64,000 nucleotides of DNA, from the NCBI GenBank assembly GCA_964016885.1, contig OZ024740.1, positions 107,384,001-107,448,000 on the forward strand. Direction: 5' to 3'. Positions 1-49,313 of the stretch are shown here, in pieces. Below the pieces are notes generated by a model that was not told the origin of the DNA, searched no databases, and saw only the letters and a list, made by a program, of their open reading frames with translations. Each line of letters begins with the position of its first letter. Within the stretch, counting starts at the first letter, position 1. The DNA comes from Eledone cirrhosa. Its lineage: Eukaryota. The translations under genes and the position numbers were made by a program.

Positions 1-400
1 AACAGGAGAGGGCTAAGAACATAGCCCTGGTGGACACCAAACTGTACGCTAAATTCCTCGCTATAGTCATTGTTAATCCTAACTTTGCTGACTGCTCACC
101 TACACATGGCTTGTACAGCTTTCACAAGCCACTCATCTATTCCTAGTTTTCTAAGAGCCCACCAGATTACAGCATGGGGCACTCTGTCGAAAGCTTCTTC
201 TAGGTTGAGAAATGCCAGGTAGAGCAACTTACTTTTAGCTAAGTACTTTTCCTGTAACTGCCTCACCAGGAAGAGAGCATCTGTGGTGCTTTTGCCTGGC
301 ACAAATCCAAATTGCATCTCCTCTAGATTTACTCAGTCCCTAATCAGCTGCAGTATAACTCTTTCTGTTACTTTTATGACCTGGTCCATCAGCTTTATGC
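1..400 (-). mobile_element. RTE-clade LINE reverse-transcriptase fragment
   Basis: [15 protein letters not shown]...AFDRVP RT motifs; homologous to 15540-15850 and 45900-46280. Confidence 0.9.
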
Positions 401-4774: not shown

Positions 4775-4817
<43 letters not shown>

Positions 4818-4886
4818 AAAAAAAGATGAAATCGAAAATGCAACTGGAGTCATAATTTAAAAAATATATATATATTTATTTGGTTC

Positions 4887-4922
4887 CTTTACTGGTTTCG
4901 CAGTTCTTGTGCTTTTCAAAAG
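4887..4922 (-). ncRNA. Second, inverted minimal hammerhead motif
   Basis: Minus strand CTT-TTGAAAA-GCAcaagaacTGC-GAAAC CA GTA-AAG. Confidence 0.5.
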
Positions 4923-5149
4923 TAGAAAAAAGAAATTCAAACACTCATATTTGAAAAAACAACCTGAGTACCCCCTCCCTTGTTTGAAGAACTTTGTAAC
5001 ACGAACTGGCGCGAAATTTATTATACCAACCAATCAAATTACTTCTCTAAAAACCTGGCGTTTCGAGCCACTTTTTTCCATATAAAACAAGTAACATTCA
5101 AAGATCAACCAGATGTGAGAAAAACCACAGGCCCTCCATCTCAACTCTA

Positions 5150-5185
5150 CTTTTGAAAAGCAGAAGAACTGTGAAACCGGTAAAG
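5150..5185 (+). ncRNA. Minimal type I hammerhead ribozyme motif (U3-A8 variant)
   Basis: CTT-TTGAAAA-GCAG aagaa CTGT-GAAAC CG GTA-AAG: helix I CTT/AAG, helix II, GAAA core, palindromic ACCGGT helix III, GUA cleavage triplet. Confidence 0.6.
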
Positions 5186-5319
5186 GAACCAAATAAATAT
5201 ATATATTTTTTTAAAATAAGACTCCAGTTACATTTTCAATTTCATCTTTTTTTCTTTATACTTTCACTCGTGTAAGACACCTTGGTTATTTTTCATTTTG
5301 TAAAAAACCTCACTTTCTA

Positions 5320-5336
5320 ATATATAATGTATGTAT

Positions 5337-5370
<34 letters not shown>

Positions 5371-5620
5371 ATATATATATATACATTTATATATACATAT
5401 ATATATACATTTATATATATATATATGTATATACACATATATATATATATATATATATACATATATATACACATATATATATATATATATACATATATAT
5501 ACACATATATATATATATACATACATATATATACACACACACACATATATATATATATATACACACATAAACATATTTATACACACACACATATATATAC
5601 ACATATACAAATATAAACAA
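5320..5620. repeat. (TA)n/(CA)n microsatellite
   Basis: Direct reading. Confidence 0.95.
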
Positions 5621-7763: not shown

Positions 7764-7822
7764 TTATTATGGTGGTCATCACCATCACCACTACTGTCTC
7801 AAATATTAATAAAATTACATAC

Positions 7823-7954
7823 CACAGAAGAAAGTGAGTTCAAAGTTAATAGCAAGGAATTGTCCTCTGTGTCCTCAGCTAAGTCAAACTCACAAACCAA
7901 TCCATCTGTAGATCCACTTGCCAACAGATTTTCATTGGTTGGATGGAATGATAC
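7823..7954 (-). CDS. WDR89: WDR89-like coding exon 7 (VSFHPTNENLLASGSTDGLVCEFDLAEDTEDNSLLLTLNSLSSV)
   Basis: AG/GTATGT boundaries, 132 nt in frame; FHP..SGSxDGLV motif. No further exon found in 1-7822, so the gene probably continues outside the window. Confidence 0.93.
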
Positions 7955-8352
7955 CTGAAAGTTAAACATTTACATTTCGAGTTTAAACCAGAAATACTCA
8001 AGATATCAGAATTGCTATTATCCCTTTTGTTACCATGCTGCCTGAAAAGCTTTTGGTTCTATGATACAAAATACTGTTTTTTTAAGTGTTTGTTTATATT
8101 TATCTAAAAAATTTCCATCATAACTTTATGTAAGAAAAGTTATACTCCAAACACCAGCTTAATAATGAGAAAGTTAGTTAAATGAGTAAATCTCTCAAAT
8201 ACTTGATTATTTTCAAAATGATTTTAAAATCATGAGCAAAAACTTTCACTAAAAAGATGTTTTTAAAAGTATATCACACAATGTGGTGTTTTTTAAAATG
8301 CCTTGAAGTATAAAGTAGAAAAATTAATAGAAAATTAAAATAAATAGCCAAC

Positions 8353-9884: not shown

Positions 9885-11050
9885 AATGATAATAATGAAA
9901 ATATTGTGTACAGTGCTCAGGTGCACTACAACTCATCAAAAGTGTATGTATAGTACATAGGTTAATGTACAAATGTCAGGAAAATGAACAGTGCATGAGT
10001 CATGATATACACGTGTGCATGTGTATGGAAGGGGGACATCAGGTGTAGTTTTGGTGAATTTCGGGAAGCATGAGGGTTTTAAAGGATGCAGTATCTCGAC
10101 AGCTAACAACTGATGCAGGTAGTTTGTTCCATGCTTCAGCAACTCTAAGCGTGAAAAAATGTTTCCGAAAGTCATGGGAGTTGTGCTGTTTTCTGACTTT
10201 GTAGGCATGTCCACGTGTGTTAGACACATGGAGATCAAAAAGGTACTCAGGGCTGTTGTTGGCGAGATGGTTAATAACTTTGTGGGTGTTTACCAAGTCC
10301 ATGATGATGATGATGATGATGATTGCCAGACGTCGGAGCTTCAATGAATCCATGCCCAGGGAAGCAAGGCGTTCAGAGTATGATGGAGGGTATGCGCTTG
10401 GTTGCACGTCTCTGAACAGTTTCCAGGAGGTCAATGTTCTGAGCAAGATAGGGTTTCCAGACTGATGATGCGAATTCCAAGTGTGGTTGTACCATAGCTG
10501 TATTCAGCTTTAAATAGATGGCTGGAGAGTGGCTAACAAAGGTCTTGCTGAGTGATGCCAAGACACCCTCGGCCTTCTTGACAATTTTAGAGATGTACTT
10601 TGTCCAACGCAAATCGTTGACAGTAATGCCCAGGTCACGTTCACAAGAGGACTTCTTGATATCAGTGTTGTGGAGGGAGTATGTGGACGCTGGATTTTTC
10701 CTCCTAAAGGGCATGGTGGTACACTTGTCCACAGCCAGCTTCAGTTGCCAGTCTGTGATCCATTGCTGCATTGTGTCCAGGTCTGATTATAGGAAAGAGT
10801 TATAGATTTCAGAATCTGTTCTTTTGATTTCAAGGTACAGTTTGATGTCATCTGCATATTTCAGTACTGTGGCATTCTTTAAGTTAGCATCTATGTCGTT
10901 AATGTATGTAACAAACAAAAGGGGACCAAGAACAGATCCTTGTGGTACACCAGTTGACATCTCATATGGTGAAGAATGCTGTGCTAGAACCGTGACTATC
11001 TCTTTTCGGCTGAGAATGAAGGATTTCAACCAGTTAAAAAGATCATCCAC
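9885..11050 (-). mobile_element. 5'-truncated CR1-like LINE (RT C-terminal half plus 3' UTR)
   Basis: GVPQGSVLGPLLF and YADD motifs; highly similar to 48040-49200. Confidence 0.92.
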
Positions 11051-11799
11051 TCTTACTAGAGATATCAATGTCTTTAGTTGTATACCTACAACCTGAAATG
11101 TTTGAGTCTTTCAGTAAGTATGTGAGACTTCCTGTACATGTTTCAGCCTTAATACAACTCACCAGTGAAATATAGCCTTCATAGTGCTTGCTGAAGTAGT
11201 GATGAGAGAATCACAAAGTAAATGTGTGATTGATCTTCCATCTGTTTTGATAATGATCATTCAGTTGCTCAATGAACAGAACATCCAATTCATGAATTAA
11301 CACGTATGTGGTTGAGTATTCCACAAATACATGTACTGTACATTTAATGTACGATATATACTCAGTTTATAAACAGGGGTTTGGATTTTTGTCTATTTCT
11401 TAGATATAAAATGGATGGGGGGGGGGGGGGGGGGGGGGGGGGCTCAGTTTATATTCAAGTATATACAGTAATTCTCAAGCAGAACCAGTATCACACAATA
11501 TGTGACATGTGACAAGGTTAGACCTTTGAATTACAGGTACAATCCGTCTGATAAGTATTCATATATTTCCTGTCGAACTAATTCCACTCACAAAGCTTGG
11601 TTTAACTGGAGGTTATGGTAAAAACATTTACTCAAAATGCCACACAGTGGGATTGAACCTGGGACCTCATGATTGTGAAATAAACTTCCTAACCACTCAG
11701 CCATGTCAATCTACACTGGTTGACGTCAATCAATTTTGGCCTCCCATTATCTTCACTCCCACCATACCATCTGTGTTAAACGATGAAGTTATAATTTAC

Positions 11800-12574: not shown

Positions 12575-12597
12575 TTAATTATAAAAATTGGATTTAC

Positions 12598-12682
12598 CTG
12601 ATTGTCATATCCCATGATGAAGAAAATAATAAATGTGGATCCTTGTGGGCAAATTTTAATCCTGTTATAACATTGTTATGAG
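12598..12682 (-). CDS. WDR89: WDR89-like coding exon 3 (AHNNVITGLKFAHKDPHLLFSSSWDMTI)
   Basis: AG/GTAAAT boundaries, 85 nt, canonical WD40 repeat signature. Confidence 0.92.
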
Positions 12683-13999
12683 CTAAAAATATAATGAAAG
12701 CCACAGCATTACAATACAAAAAATTACACAGATTGTATTTTGGTTTACATCCAACATTTAATTTATTAACTTTGAAAGTCCTATACCATATTAAAATGCA
12801 TTATTAACAAGACATTCTTAAACAGCACATATGACTGCATCACAATAAAAATTTAAGCCTCAAATTTTCTCAATGATCTTCTTGCCACATTTGAACTAAC
12901 AAACCTGTTTTTATATATTTTCAACCAAATCATTACAGGATGTTAAGACTTAAAGAAGGATAATTATATATATACAACAGATAATTACATATAGATGAAA
13001 AAATTAAATCTCACTATTACATGACAGATAATAGATTTTAGTAGTGAAATATTTGTTTTATTCAGTTGAAAGTTAGTTATTTCACTGAACCACTTACAAT
13101 TCTTGAATATCACATTATATTCTGTTAAAACACAGAAACAGAATATATTCTTGTTAGAAATATGGTCACAAAAGAGTTAACCCTTTCATTACCATACTTC
13201 TAATAAAAAAACACGAATGGTTTTCAAATAATTTTGGAAATAATCAAGAAGTTGGAGGGATTTAGTGATATAACTAACTTTCTCGTGATTTATCTAGTGT
13301 TTGGAGTATAATTTAACAAAAGAATGTACAGAAAATTATGATAGGTTTTCAGATAAATATAAACCTTTTAAACATCATGTGATTAGAAAGTGGCAGTGGA
13401 ATTTGAAAATTGAATTGGTAACTTTGCTGTATATTTTTTTTACTACAGAAAATAAATCTAATAATAATTTCTACTATAAGCACAAGGCCAGCAATTTGAG
13501 AAGAGGTGAAAGTCGATTAAATCAACCTCAGTGCATTACTGGTGCTTTATTTTATCAACCTCGTAAGGATGAAAGGCAAGCAAAGCTAACCTTGACGTCT
13601 AATAATAAGAGAGCATAGAATCCAATCTTTCAATTTTATTCGATAATTCTGTCAAACCCTCAAAAACAGTCTTCTTGTATTTAAACTCTGATTACTGTTA
13701 TACATTCGTTTAATAACCTTTTCGTATTTAAACACTGATTACTGTTATACATTCGTTTAAATTATGGTCGAATTTGTAGGTTTAGATTATAAAAAGAAAA
13801 AAAAAAAAATAACCTTCTCGGTAACTTCCGCATACCCCCCCCCCCCCCCCCCCCCCATTATTAGATGGTCCAATCATACATAATTCAGCGGCTTATATGT
13901 TTCTCTTACCAATCTCTTACACAAAACCACCGCCTTGGCTATTCACTCCTTAAGTTTAAACCTGGTTGCCTTTGATATGCTAGATGGACTGTGGAATTC

Positions 14000-16900
14000 T
14001 GGAGAGTACGAAGAATCTGAACAATGTCAAAGATAAAGATAAATTCAGCTCATGGGCCAGACGAAAATGCAAGGATACCTCTTTATTTCAGACGCGGATG
14101 GCAAACATAACCCCATCTCCCTCACTCCTCCCTACACCTCCAACCCATCCCTTCCACCCACCAAACGAAATCCAAAACTTCAGAGTTAGTACCATGAATG
14201 TAGGCACTTTAAAAGGTCGCTCTAACGAGGTTGTAGAGATGCTTGAATGTAAGGGAGTTGATGCTTGTTGCGTCTAAGAGACTAGGTGGAGGGGTGGGTC
14301 TGCTAGATTCATTGTGAGTAAAAAACGATGCTATAAACTTTTCTGGGTGGGAAATGAAAATGGGCTGGGTGGAGTAGGAATTGTGTTAGCAGAAAAATAG
14401 GTAGATAAGGTAATTGACATAAATAGAGTAAGCGACAGAATAATCAAGACTTGTCCTAAATAGAACTACTGTGATAATAATATCCGCTTACGCACCCCAA
14501 TCTGGACTGCCTGGCGTTATAAAAGACAGTTTCTATGTGTTGCTAATGCTCACTACCTCCCAACTAACCAACAGTGACTACATAATTATTGCTGGCGACT
14601 TAAATGGTCATGTTGGACATCATTGTGACGGCTATGACGGAATCCATGGAGGCTACGGGTTTGGTACCAGAAATGAGGAAGGCTTCAGAATCCTGGAATT
14701 CTGTGACGCAAATAACCTAACTATCTGTAACACAAACTTCAAAAAACGAGACAATCACTTGATTACCTATAGATCAGGGGAACACACCAGTCAGATAGAT
14801 TATATCCTTACCAGAAGACGTGACAATGTGTCTGTTGTAAACACTAAATTCCTCCCCCGCGAAGAATGCATCTCCCAACATAGCCTCATAGTTAGTGACC
14901 TCATAGTCAGGACGACATGTACTCAATAACAGAGGAGGACCACCCTGAGAAGAAGAATATGGAAGTTAACCCCACAGCCAGTAACAAATTTAAAAGCATA
15001 TTACTTGATGCTTTTGACAGTAAGGAAGAGCAATTAGAGACGTACAGTATAGAGGAACAGTGGGAATTCCTGAACGTTAACCTGCTGAAGGCGATAGATG
15101 AAATCTGTGGCTGGAGCAGATCTATAGGCAGGAGGCTTGGAAGTGTCACTACGATAGGCTACTAAATGAGGAGAATAAGTGGGAAAAAGATAGTCTGCCC
15201 CAAATCGATCCAATAGAGGGACCAGCAGTGCAAGTTGAAGGTAGTATAAGTAAGGCAATCAAAGATATGAAGACAGGCAAAGCAGCTGGAACTTCGCAGA
15301 TAGTTGCTGAAATGCTGAAAGCATTTGGATCGGTGAGACACACTATGGTCACCCGGATAGTAAACCAAGTCATACAGAATGGGGTCATACCAAATGACTG
15401 GCATAGCATCATCATCATTAACTGCTACAAGGGTAAAGGAGATGCCCTAGATAGGGGAAACTATAGAGGCATTAAATTAATTATATATATAAAATTAATA
15501 TATATTAAATTAATTATATATATAAAAAGTTATAGCGCAACTAATCAGAGAGCGAATTGATCTAGAGGAAATGCAGTAGACTCTCTTTTCCTTGTACGAC
15601 AACTACAGGAGAAGTACCTAGCTAAAAGTAAACCCCTATACTTAGCTTTTGTTAACTTGGAGAAAACATTTGACAGAGTCCCCCGTGCCATTATCTGGTG
15701 GGCCCTTAGAAAACTAGGGGTTGATGAATGGCTTGTGAGAGCTATACAAGCCATGTATAAAGAAACAGTCAGCAAGGTTAGAATTAACAACGAATATAGT
15801 GAAGAATTTAGCGTAAAAGTTGGTGTTCATCAGGGCTCTGTCCTTAGCCCCCTCGTATTTATTATTGCCCTTCAGGCTATAACAGAGGAATTCAAGACCG
15901 GCTGTCCATGGGAACTTCTAGACGCAGATGATCTAACACTCATAGCTGAATCAATGGCTGAACTAGAGAAGGAATTCCAAACTTGGAAGCACGGCCTAGA
16001 ATCAAAAGGCCTTAAAATTATCTTGTCTAAGACTAAAGTTCTAGTATGTAAGAAGCAAAATAGGGCACTGGTCTCCTCTGGGAAATGGCCATGCTCAGTG
16101 TGTAGGAAAGGAGTAGGCAGAAACTCCATTTTATGTCCCAAATGCAAAGTATGGGTACATAAAAGATGTAGTGGGATCACAGGTAAGCTAACTAAGAACA
16201 TAGATTTTATATGTGACCGGTGCTCAGGTGCAATAAGTAGTAGCAAGTGCCCACAGGATACTAGCTCCTTCCATTGCCCAGATGGTTCTATAGAAATAGT
16301 GGACACCTTCCATTACCTGGGTGACGAAATCAGCAGTGGTGGAGGGTGCTCTGAAAGTACAGTAGCTAGAGTCAGAACGGGATGGAAAAAGTTCAGAGAG
16401 CTTATACCACTATTGGCCGCTAAAGGTTTCTCTCTAAAAATGAAAGGTAGACTGTATGATGCCTGCATACGAACAGCAATGTTACATGGCAGTGAGGCAC
16501 AGGCATTGTGTGTAGAGGATCTGTGCAGACTGGAGAGGAACGAAGCTTTCATGCTCCGTTGGATGTGTAATAGTAATATATGTGAACGGCAAAGCATAAA
16601 TGAACTAAGTGAGAAATTAGGTATAAGAGGGATCAGATGCTGTTTACTCGAGAGAAGGCTACGTTGGTATGGTCACATGATGCGCATGAAAGACGACAGC
16701 TGTATAAAAAAGTGCAGGGCGATCAAAATAGATGGAAGTTACAGGGTAGGTAGACCCAGAAAAACCTGGGACGACTTGATAAATTCCGACCTTACACACT
16801 TACACACTTACACCTCTCCAAGACAATGTCACTGGACCGACATCTTTGGTGCTGCACAGTAATACAGAAAACCCGCCTTGCCTAAGTACAAAGCACAACA

Positions 16901-33410: not shown

Positions 33411-35830
<2,420 letters not shown>

Positions 35831-47344: not shown

Positions 47345-49313
47345 AAGCAGAGACCTCACTCTCCAGTTGGTCCTCTTCGCAATCCCCACACAAGCCAGAT
47401 CATTGACGATCCCATGGAATGCGCAGAACTCATTGCTGAGTGCTATGCAAGTATTTTTACTGTTGAAAACCAGAATGTACCATCTCCACCATCTCTAACA
47501 TCAAATTCCATAACAACTATGGAATTTACACCTGCAATGTTGCGACGTCACCTTAAGAATAAGCGCAACTATGCCTCTCCTGGTCTTGATGGTGTGACAT
47601 ACCTGCTTCTCAAACGTGGCGGGTATTTCCTTTTGCGCCAGCTTTCTTTCTTCTTTCAATACTGTCTCAACAATGGTGCTACTCCGGAGCAGTGGAAAAC
47701 TGCCAGTGTGATTTTCCCCTGTTCAAAAAGGGCAACCGCATGTCACCTGTCAACTATCGTCCAGTCAGTCTTACTAGCTGTATGGCCAAACTGATGGAAT
47801 CCTGTGTCAGAGAAACACTTTGGAACTTCTGGAGCTCTCACAGCCTCATCCAGCCATCACAGTTTGGATTTATCCCTAAATCCAGCTGCTGTGATCAGCT
47901 TATCGAGTTCCTTGAGGACATCACCCGGATCACTGACAGCGGCTCATGGGTGGATGTTGTTTACCTTGACTTTGCTAAGGCTTTTAATTCTGTGCCACAC
48001 AAAAGACTTATGGCAAAACTCTCTGCAATGGGTGTGAGGGATGATCTTTTCGACTGGTTGAAATCCTTCATTCTCAGCCGAAAAGAAGTAGTCACGGTTC
48101 TAGGACAGCATTCTTCACCATATGAGATGTCATCTGGTGTACCACAGGGATCTGTTCTTGGTCCTCTTTTGTTTGTGGCATATATTAATGACATAGATGC
48201 CAACTTACAGAATGCCACGGTACTGAAATATGCAGATGACATCAAGCTGTACCTTGAAATCAAAAGGACTGATCCTGAAATTTACAACTCTTTCCTACAA
48301 TCAGACCTGGACACAATGCAGCAATGGATCACAGACTGGCAACTGAAGCTGGCTGTGGACAAGTGTACCACCATGCATTTTGGAAGAAAAAATCCAGCGT
48401 CCACATACTCCCTCCACAACACTGATATCAAAAAGTCCTCTTGTGAATGTGACCTGGGCATTACTGTCAGCAACGATTTGCGTTGGACAAAGCATGTCTC
48501 TAAGATTGTCAAGAAGGCCGAGGGTGTCTTGGCATCACTCAGCAAGACCTTTGTTAGCCGCTCTCCAGCCATCTATTTAAAGCTGTATACAACTATGGTA
48601 CGACCACACTTGGAATTCGCATCATCAGTCTGGAACCCCTATCTTGCTCAGAACATTGACCTCCTGGAAACTGTTCAGAGACGTGCAACCAAGCGCATAC
48701 CCTCCATCAGACACCTACCATACTCTGAACGCCTTGCTTTCCTGGGCATGGATTCATTGAAGCTCCAACGTCTGGCAATGGACTTGGTGAATACCCACAA
48801 AGTTTTTAACCATCTCGCCAATTGCAACCCTGAGCGCCTCTTTGATCTCCATGTGTCTAACACACGTGGACATGCCTACAAGATCAGAAAACAGCACAGC
48901 TCCCATGACTTTCGTAGACATTTTTTCACGCTCAGAGTTGCTGAAGCATGGAACAAACTGCCTGTGTCAGTTGTTAGCTGCCGAGACACTGCATCCTTTA
49001 AGACACTCATGCTTCTCGAAATACGCCAAAACTACACCTGATGTACCCCTTCCATACACATGCACACATGTGTGTATCATGACTCGTGCACTGTTCATTT
49101 TACTGATGTTTGTGCATTGCCCTATGTACTGTACATGTGACTTTTTTGATGAGTTGTGGTGCACCTGGGCACTGTACACAATATTTCATTATTGTTATTA
49201 TTATTATATCATGACTCATACACTGTTCATTTTCCTGACATTTGTACATTATTCTATGTACTATACATGCACCTTTGATGAGTTGTAGTGCACCTGAGCA
49301 CTGTACACAATAA

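What the first reader, a model, noticed from the sequence alone, without database searches (positions are those of the whole stretch)
4811..5260. Penelope-like element with two inverted minimal hammerhead ribozymes using a U3-A8 covariant core
Seen: ~115-bp inverted arms, each containing TTGAAAA-[GCA(G)...(C)TG(C/T)]-GAAAC-NN-GTA closed by a CTT/AAG helix I and followed by AATAAA. Established: Penelope-like retroelements carry minimal type I hammerheads with a short palindromic helix III in their pseudo-LTRs, and C3-G8 is a tertiary pair in the core. Here C3->U and G8->A change together in both copies, which keeps that pair but would escape CUGANGA pattern searches. Inference: a non-autonomous, retrozyme-like family that can self-cleave (possibly as a dimer). 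If the WDR89-like gene extends left of the window, the minus-strand copy lies sense within its pre-mRNA and the arms could also fold into dsRNA.
Basis: partly seen in the sequence, partly recalled or inferred. Interest (0 to 1): 0.8.

Follow-up and report, generated by a model that had tools for sequence, protein, structure and literature searches.

The report
Inverted Penelope retroelement end, degenerate hammerheads
This is an ordinary remnant of a very abundant Penelope-type jumping gene: two copies of the element's end lie head to head in a TA microsatellite inside an intron, each with a mutated copy of an already described self-cutting RNA motif that is likely inactive here; of further interest is only that about half of the family's sampled copies begin at one spot that likely marks the start of the element's RNA.

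Summary
There are two 116-bp inverted arms (108/116 identical), each with a minimal type I hammerhead with a U3-A8 core. It is not a retrozyme. It is a 5'-truncated copy of the 3' pseudo-LTR of an autonomous Penelope-like element with Neptune-type architecture (RT, CX4CX2C linker, C-terminal GIY-YIG), plus an inverted tail-less copy. The genome holds 12,367 exact matches to the motif and many intact RT-EN frames.

U3-A8 cores, inverted hammerhead pairs and one-sided tails are all published. The shared U3/A8 is family ancestry, not covariation between the arms; the 3-8 pair does covary across families. Both window motifs carry further mutations, lie on opposite strands, and are predicted to pair into a long hairpin, so cleavage here is unlikely.

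The family adds three things. All 41 of 41 head-to-head pairs have exactly one tailed arm. 55 of 100 arms start 56-72 nt upstream of the cut site, about 30 nt after a TATA motif, but 0 of 30 ORF1-heading pLTRs do, and no excess of ends falls at the cut site. An upstream ORF overlaps the RT frame at a U UUU UUA site also found in distant relatives.

The parts
4811..4926 (-). Inverted, tail-less arm: copy of the pLTR from 36 nt before to 78 nt after the hammerhead cut site; its outer end merges into (TA)n
4887..4922 (-). Degenerate U3-A8 minimal hammerhead (helix II pair 4 broken, helix III palindrome lost); sense in the host pre-mRNA
4924..5320 (+). 5'-truncated 3' end (pLTR) of the autonomous Penelope-like element; junction with the inverted arm has about 5 nt of microhomology at 4920-4924
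5008..5087 (+). Promoter-like motifs: E2F-like 5008-5016, CCAAT 5030-5034, TATAAAA 5081-5087 (motif names recalled; activity untested)
5110..5126 (+). Family-wide 5'-end hot spot (72 to 56 nt before the cut site); inferred transcription start at about 5110-5111
5150..5185 (+). U3-A8 minimal type I hammerhead, predicted cut after 5182; G10.1-U11.1 instead of the family's G-C
5261..5320 (+). 60-nt tail present on one arm only, between the two fixed 3' ends of the family (inferred reverse-transcription start sites)
4778..4814 (.). (TA)n target, left flank
5321..5610 (.). TA-rich microsatellite, right flank

Best explanation
The stretch is a truncated copy of the 3' pseudo-LTR of an abundant autonomous Penelope-like retroelement joined head to head to a shorter inverted copy inside a TA microsatellite, likely made in one insertion in which both target strands primed reverse transcription at two fixed sites 60 nt apart on uncut RNA, and its two mutated hammerheads are likely inactive passengers. 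Shown: family, autonomous partner, two fixed 3' ends, one tailed arm per pair, one subfamily per pair. Inferred: the endonuclease cuts (TA)n on both strands; each end primes cDNA, one at the tail end (5320) and one at 5260; the two cDNAs stop independently and are joined by microhomology; repair gives the palindrome. In the family, most cDNAs likely run off the RNA's 5' end at a TATA-driven start about 72 nt before the cut site. The hammerhead is a conserved structure of the element, predicted to work as a dimer or with the element's protein, but it does not set the ends of inserted copies.
For: Copies continue upstream into RVT_1 and GIY-YIG frames; 775-aa open frames are common among the 95 scored matches. 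3' ends: 56 of 100 arms at +143 and 33 at +80. All 41 of 41 abutting pairs have exactly one tailed arm, and 38 of the 41 other arms end at the +80 site. Same subfamily in 27 of 27 informative pairs, with subfamilies at 43 and 50 arms. The tailed arm reaches further 5' in 11 pairs, the tail-less arm in 11, and they are within 5 nt in 19, which simple fold-back copying of one cDNA cannot give. Ends at the cut site: 76, control position 50, hot-spot position 669. Frangieh et al. 2024 show two internal start sites bounding the tail, extension of both strands, a protein-assisted hammerhead and uncut RNA as the main template in a Poseidon element.
Against: No RNA data and no assay. The transcription start is inferred from motif spacing and copy ends only. 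Many junctions look like short hairpins, which fold-back priming would also give, and later deletion or gene conversion could blur which arm was longer and make the arms alike. The biochemistry cited is for another clade. The window's own forward arm starts far upstream of the hot spot (about -258). The samples are the first 100 matches on one chromosome, not random draws.
Confidence: 0.85

Rival explanations
1. A separate non-autonomous, retrozyme- or SINE-like family of about 215 nt that self-cleaves and spreads on its own line.
For: 55 of 100 arms share a 5' end window and lack any ORF, so short copies dominate.
Against: No position separates 61 short from 25 long arms (smallest p 0.016, in an A/T tract, among 136 positions). 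Short copies lack the promoter-like motifs upstream of the hot spot. In the first 100 motif matches, close pairs are head to head (one tail to tail), not tandem arrays. Copy ends are not at the cut site.
Confidence: 0.06
2. The inverted arm is made by fold-back of a single cDNA that then copies itself and stops 60 nt short; Arkhipova et al. 2013 propose self-priming for such head-to-head palindromes, on an antisense template.
For: Same subfamily in 27 of 27 pairs and more shared private variants than between loci (0.13 versus 0.03 per pair). Hairpin-like junctions. In the window the tail-less arm is nested in the tailed arm.
Against: In 11 of 41 pairs the tail-less arm holds sequence absent from the tailed arm, by up to several hundred bases. 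Two internal start sites are shown in vitro for a related element.
Confidence: 0.2
3. A DNA-transposon MITE or foldback element with terminal inverted repeats.
For: Inverted ends in a TA target.
Against: The inversion is copy-specific and variable, the arms are unequal, and the sequence is the 3' end of an RT-encoding element.
Confidence: 0.01
4. The minus-strand hammerhead is active in, or co-opted by, the host WD40 pre-mRNA.
For: It lies sense in an intron of that gene.
Against: It has lost one helix II pair and the helix III palindrome, and its complement is transcribed first, forming a -202 kcal/mol hairpin. Conservation in other species was not tested.
Confidence: 0.03

Closest known systems
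Minimal hammerheads of metazoan Penelope-like elements, including the U3-A8 variant of Schistosoma Cercyon (Cervera and de la Pena 2014, PMC4209133)
   Same: Type I, short helix I, palindromic helix III, U3-A8 core (about 1,300 hits in that paper), dual motifs 100-700 bp apart on opposite strands, mostly in truncated copies.
   Different: Helix II is 4 bp with no unpaired base after A9; at least 12,367 near-identical copies in one family.
Neptune (or Nematis) clade EN+ PLEs with inverted 5'-truncated copy and tail (Craig et al. 2021, PMC8557442; Arkhipova et al. 2013, PMC3846280)
   Same: RT, CX2-5CxxC linker, C-terminal GIY-YIG, 3' hammerhead, partial tandems, inverted 5' copy, one-sided tail, microsatellite target.
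   Different: The tail is 60-63 nt rather than 30-40. A 400-aa ORF1 overlaps ORF2 in the -1 frame; Craig's text calls canonical EN+ PLEs single-ORF, but the Fig. 1 legend allows a frameshifted ORF1 for clades I could not see. No tree against named references was built.
Poseidon PAc of Anolis (Frangieh et al. 2024, PMC11167929)
   Same: Two fixed 3' ends bounding a tail; no ends at the hammerhead cut site.
   Different: In PAc the hammerhead and start sites overlap the ORF; here they lie before ORF1. The parts read report no 5' hot spot and no one-tail-per-pair count.
Animal non-LTR retrozymes (bioRxiv 10.64898/2026.07.22.740005, part 1 of 5 read)
   Same: Type I hammerhead, PLE-related, non-coding.
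   Different: Retrozymes are head-to-tail tandem units; this is a head-to-head pair cut from an autonomous element.

Membership tests
EN+ Penelope-like element | RT plus GIY-YIG endonuclease in the autonomous partner | tested here: met
   RVT_1 E 5.6e-8 and 1.5e-6, just under the Pfam cut-off; GIY-YIG E 3e-6 at the C-terminus
EN+ Penelope-like element | Pseudo-LTR, partial tandems, inverted 5'-truncated copy, one-sided tail | tested here: met
   86 pLTR-ORF1 junctions; 41 of 41 pairs with one tail
Neptune/Nematis type | CX2-5CxxC linker before a C-terminal EN | tested here: met
   CX4CX2C in ORF2; motif in 120 of 120 listed homologues
Neptune (versus Nematis) | Phylogenetic placement with named Neptune RTs | not testable with these tools
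   No named reference set was held; the homologues listed carry no clade names
Naiad | N-terminal EN, no canonical hammerhead | tested here: not met
   EN is C-terminal; hammerhead present
Minimal type I hammerhead | Core with complementary 3-8 pair; helices kept while sequence changes | tested here: met
   Positions 3 and 8 left free in 96 related loci: C-G 23, U-A 6, G-C 1, A-U 1, A-A 1. Other U3-A8 families in this genome have other helices I-III; helix pairing was part of the scan's filter.
Minimal type I hammerhead | Self-cleavage | not testable with these tools
   Only folds: intact motif -6.4 kcal/mol as monomer, -20.3 as dimer through helix III
Non-LTR retrozyme | Head-to-tail tandem units each with a hammerhead | tested here: not met
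   Head-to-head pair here; close pairs among the first 100 matches are inverted
Non-LTR retrozyme | Own non-autonomous lineage | tested here: not met
   No diagnostic position between 61 short and 25 long arms
MITE / foldback DNA transposon | Fixed terminal inverted repeats shared by copies | tested here: not met
   Inversion points vary from copy to copy

The most novel reading that the evidence does not exclude
The family's copies record two kinds of template. A linear RNA starting at a TATA-driven site 72 nt before the hammerhead gives 'strong-stop' run-off cDNAs, about half of all copies. A template without that 5' end (a hammerhead-made unit-length circle, or LTR-like strand transfer) gives the long and tandem copies, whose ORF1-heading pLTRs never stop there (0 of 30). 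Together with an ORF1 joined to RT-EN by a -1 ribosomal frameshift, this would make the element's cycle closer to an LTR retrotransposon's than thought, and give the hammerhead a testable role in making source copies rather than ordinary insertions.
Probability: 0.3. Interest if true: 0.55.

Novelty: new member of a known kind. Interest (0 to 1): 0.22.

Why it matters
The locus itself is one of more than ten thousand decaying copies and matters little. The family is a large, young natural record of how Penelope-like elements insert, a mechanism with one in vitro system among the papers read. It extends the two-start-site model to a Neptune-type element with a strict one-tail-per-pair rule. It also argues genome-wide that the hammerhead cut does not define inserted ends, and points to a sharp 5' stop that tandem heads escape. 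That last contrast makes the open question of what the ribozyme does, and how pseudo-LTRs are regenerated, directly testable.

Tried and rejected
Rfam scan: no hammerhead family matched. C3-G8 version of the family motif: 0 matches. Excess of 5' ends at the cut site: none (76 versus 50; 2 of 100 arms start at +1); the counts are lower bounds and the control differs in its fit to a TA flank. Two-parent origin of the arms: not seen (27 of 27 same subfamily; 2 of 29 differ at a second C/T marker). Separate short-copy lineage: none. A cap-derived G before the hot spot: G is common there, but junction microhomology explains it, so it is not claimed. Pseudoknot after the slippery site: no consistent one among 5 loci; a hairpin only. 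ORF1: no Pfam family; the Atlas search did not complete. Expression: no RNA holder listed. Contigs of three runs of unrecorded kind were laid; one shows opposite-strand joints at the hot spot, but depth is no copy number and is not used. Arkhipova et al. 2017 (Mol Biol Evol) is not held, and figures and supplements were not seen, so the frameshifted ORF1 may already be described for Neptune. Searches that found no report of the 5' hot spot or of frameshifting in Neptune.

Full report
1. Observation. The reverse complement of 4811-4926 matches 5146-5260 at 108 of 116 columns, and a structure-aware scan of the 64 kb finds exactly two minimal hammerhead motifs, one per arm. Rfam has no matching hammerhead model at E<=10. 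Positions below count from the cut site (0 = 5182) in a reference copy; tract lengths shift them by a few bases between copies.

2. The family. The genome (3.0 Gb; likely a cephalopod from recall, not tested) holds 12,367 exact matches to the 30-nt motif, control 0, and 15,523 to a downstream anchor. The 29 other loci fetched match 4924-5300 at 91-94% and nearly all run on to the same end, window 5320, followed by a microsatellite, mostly (TA)n. [quoted passage not shown] 775-aa open frames are common among 95 scored matches. Twenty long loci show the unit: pLTR, a 400-aa ORF1, ORF2, 3' UTR, pLTR, about 4.7 kb; 86 exact pLTR-ORF1 junctions exist. The window element is therefore the last 400 nt of an autonomous Penelope-like element plus an inverted piece of the same end. 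The architecture is Neptune or Nematis type by Craig et al. 2021 (passages); no tree with named references could be built.

3. The hammerhead. U3-A8 is the family state; the C3-G8 form on the same helix II has 0 matches. Its presence in both arms is thus one inherited state. Covariation appears across families. A pattern that excludes the family's own helix II start gives 742 matches against 43 for the control; many of the 100 listed are mutated family copies, the rest include other families with different helices I, II and III. In 96 related loci from other organisms, with positions 3 and 8 left free, 31 of 32 entries are complementary: C-G 23, U-A 6, G-C 1, A-U 1, A-A 1 (some loci are copies of one family). 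The motif is real and conserved. An intact copy folds at -6.4 kcal/mol alone and -20.3 as a dimer through the palindromic helix III. The window copies have decayed: the right one has U at 11.1, the left one has lost a helix II pair and the palindrome. They lie on opposite strands, and a transcript through the locus is predicted to pair the arms (-178 and -202 kcal/mol). Minus-strand WD40 exons at 12597-12800 and 7802-7969, and a WD-like one about 7.5 kb left of the window (by eye, no Pfam hit), place the element in an intron. There the left motif is sense but is transcribed after its complement.

4. How the pair arose. Of the first 100 anchor matches on the largest contig, 56 arms end at +143 and 33 at +80. 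Among 159 arms from that region, 41 abutting head-to-head pairs were found; all 41 have one tailed arm, and 38 of the partners end at the +80 site. Both arms belong to the same subfamily in 27 of 27 informative pairs (3 of 30 not covered). Either arm can reach further 5' (11, 11, and 19 level). This fits priming from both target strands at two fixed sites on the same RNA or on sister RNAs, followed by joining of the two cDNAs by microhomology. Frangieh et al. 2024 (main text read) showed two internal start sites bounding the tail, extension of both strands and use of uncut RNA for a Poseidon element. The joining step is my inference. Self-priming (Arkhipova et al. 2013, Discussion read) remains a rival for part of the junctions.

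5. The 5' ends. 55 of 100 arms begin between -72 and -56, 28 reach further up and 17 begin lower. Genome-wide, 669 copies begin at -71 with three foreign bases before it, against 76 at the cut site and 50 at a control position; 3,337 run through -74. The hot spot lies 30 nt after a TATAAAA motif, with CCAAT and E2F-like motifs upstream (names recalled), so it likely marks the RNA start. A start inside the pLTR is known for Penelope and Chlamys (passages). Short copies are not a lineage of their own (61 versus 25 arms, no diagnostic position). By contrast, 0 of the first 30 of 86 pLTRs that head ORF1 stop in that window, while 21 pass it and 9 end below it (one alignment was poor; Fisher p 7.6e-9). 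A reverse-transcriptase block would hit both classes, so the templates likely differ. A circle, efficient strand transfer, or short RNAs from 3' pLTRs could each explain it; I cannot separate them.

6. ORF1. ORF1 overlaps ORF2 in the -1 frame, with U UUU UUA in phase in 19 of 20 long copies; the twentieth has an extra T and a fused 938-aa frame. Of 21 close homologous loci from other organisms, 6 show a -1 overlap and 3 of these have the same heptamer in phase; a fourth locus with broken frames has it too, and one locus has a single long frame. Craig's Fig. 1 legend mentions a frameshifted ORF1 without naming the clade in the text I saw, so this may be known.

7. What is known. Cervera and de la Pena 2014 (parts 1-2 of 4) describe the U3-A8 covariation, dual motifs on opposite strands 100-700 bp apart, and low dimer activity. 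Craig et al. 2021 and Arkhipova et al. 2013 (passages) describe the inverted 5' copy and the tail. Also seen: bioRxiv 10.64898/2026.07.22.740005 part 1 of 5 and passages of PMC12602865, PMC2377424, PMC5408684, PMC6431247 and PMC9977147. No figures or supplements were seen. Searches found no report of the 5' hot spot or of the tandem-head contrast; most subscription papers are not in the library.

8. Verdict. A real but ordinary locus: a new member of a known kind, interest 0.22. The family-level end statistics are the part worth following.

Noticed in passing
L207:3735-7174, L225:3729-7168 (oriented +); overlap near L225:4860: Autonomous partner has a 400-aa ORF1 of no Pfam family overlapping RT-EN in the -1 frame at U UUU UUA; same site in phase in distant homologues L286, L287, L294.
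   Followed up: partly
window 5110-5126 and family copies L047-L175 versus L256-L285: 55 of 100 arms start 56-72 nt before the cut site, about 30 nt after a TATA motif; 0 of 30 ORF1-heading pLTRs stop there.
   Followed up: yes
L002, L027, L030 upstream of the pLTR match; window 5008-5087: The 3' UTR carries repeated modules with E2F-like, E-box-like and CCAAT motifs (names recalled), in variable number between copies; possibly a cell-cycle or germline promoter.
   Followed up: no
L228, L236, L249-L253, L255; L230, L234, L237, L240-L242; L243: Further U3-A8 hammerhead families in this genome with different helices; one lies downstream of a 55%-identical endonuclease end (L253), one forms a 3.4-kb direct pair (L240/L241). 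A C3-G8 family with a 6-bp helix I also occurs (L120, L209, L229).
   Followed up: partly
window 12597-12800 (-), 7802-7969 (-), L046:399-584 (-): Exons of a minus-strand WD40-repeat gene flanking the element (WDR89-like by recall).
   Followed up: partly
window 99-332 (-), 10790-11110 (-), 14444-16859 (+), 34331-34462 (-), 47590-49038 (+): LINE-type reverse transcriptase fragments, one with an endonuclease piece and a PHD-like finger.
   Followed up: no
L366-L381: Penelope-like RT loci, most with a hammerhead motif, sit in contigs filed as bacterial genome assemblies; likely animal host DNA contaminating those assemblies.
   Followed up: no
G000:C3:292520003-292520357; G000:C25:6479764-6480099: Short local tandem runs (165-bp and 104-bp spacing) of family pieces, seen only as pattern matches.
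   Followed up: no
L031:4232-5731 and L027:619-1242 (oriented -): A different RT element with an endonuclease-like C-terminus lies next to or inside some family copies.
   Followed up: no
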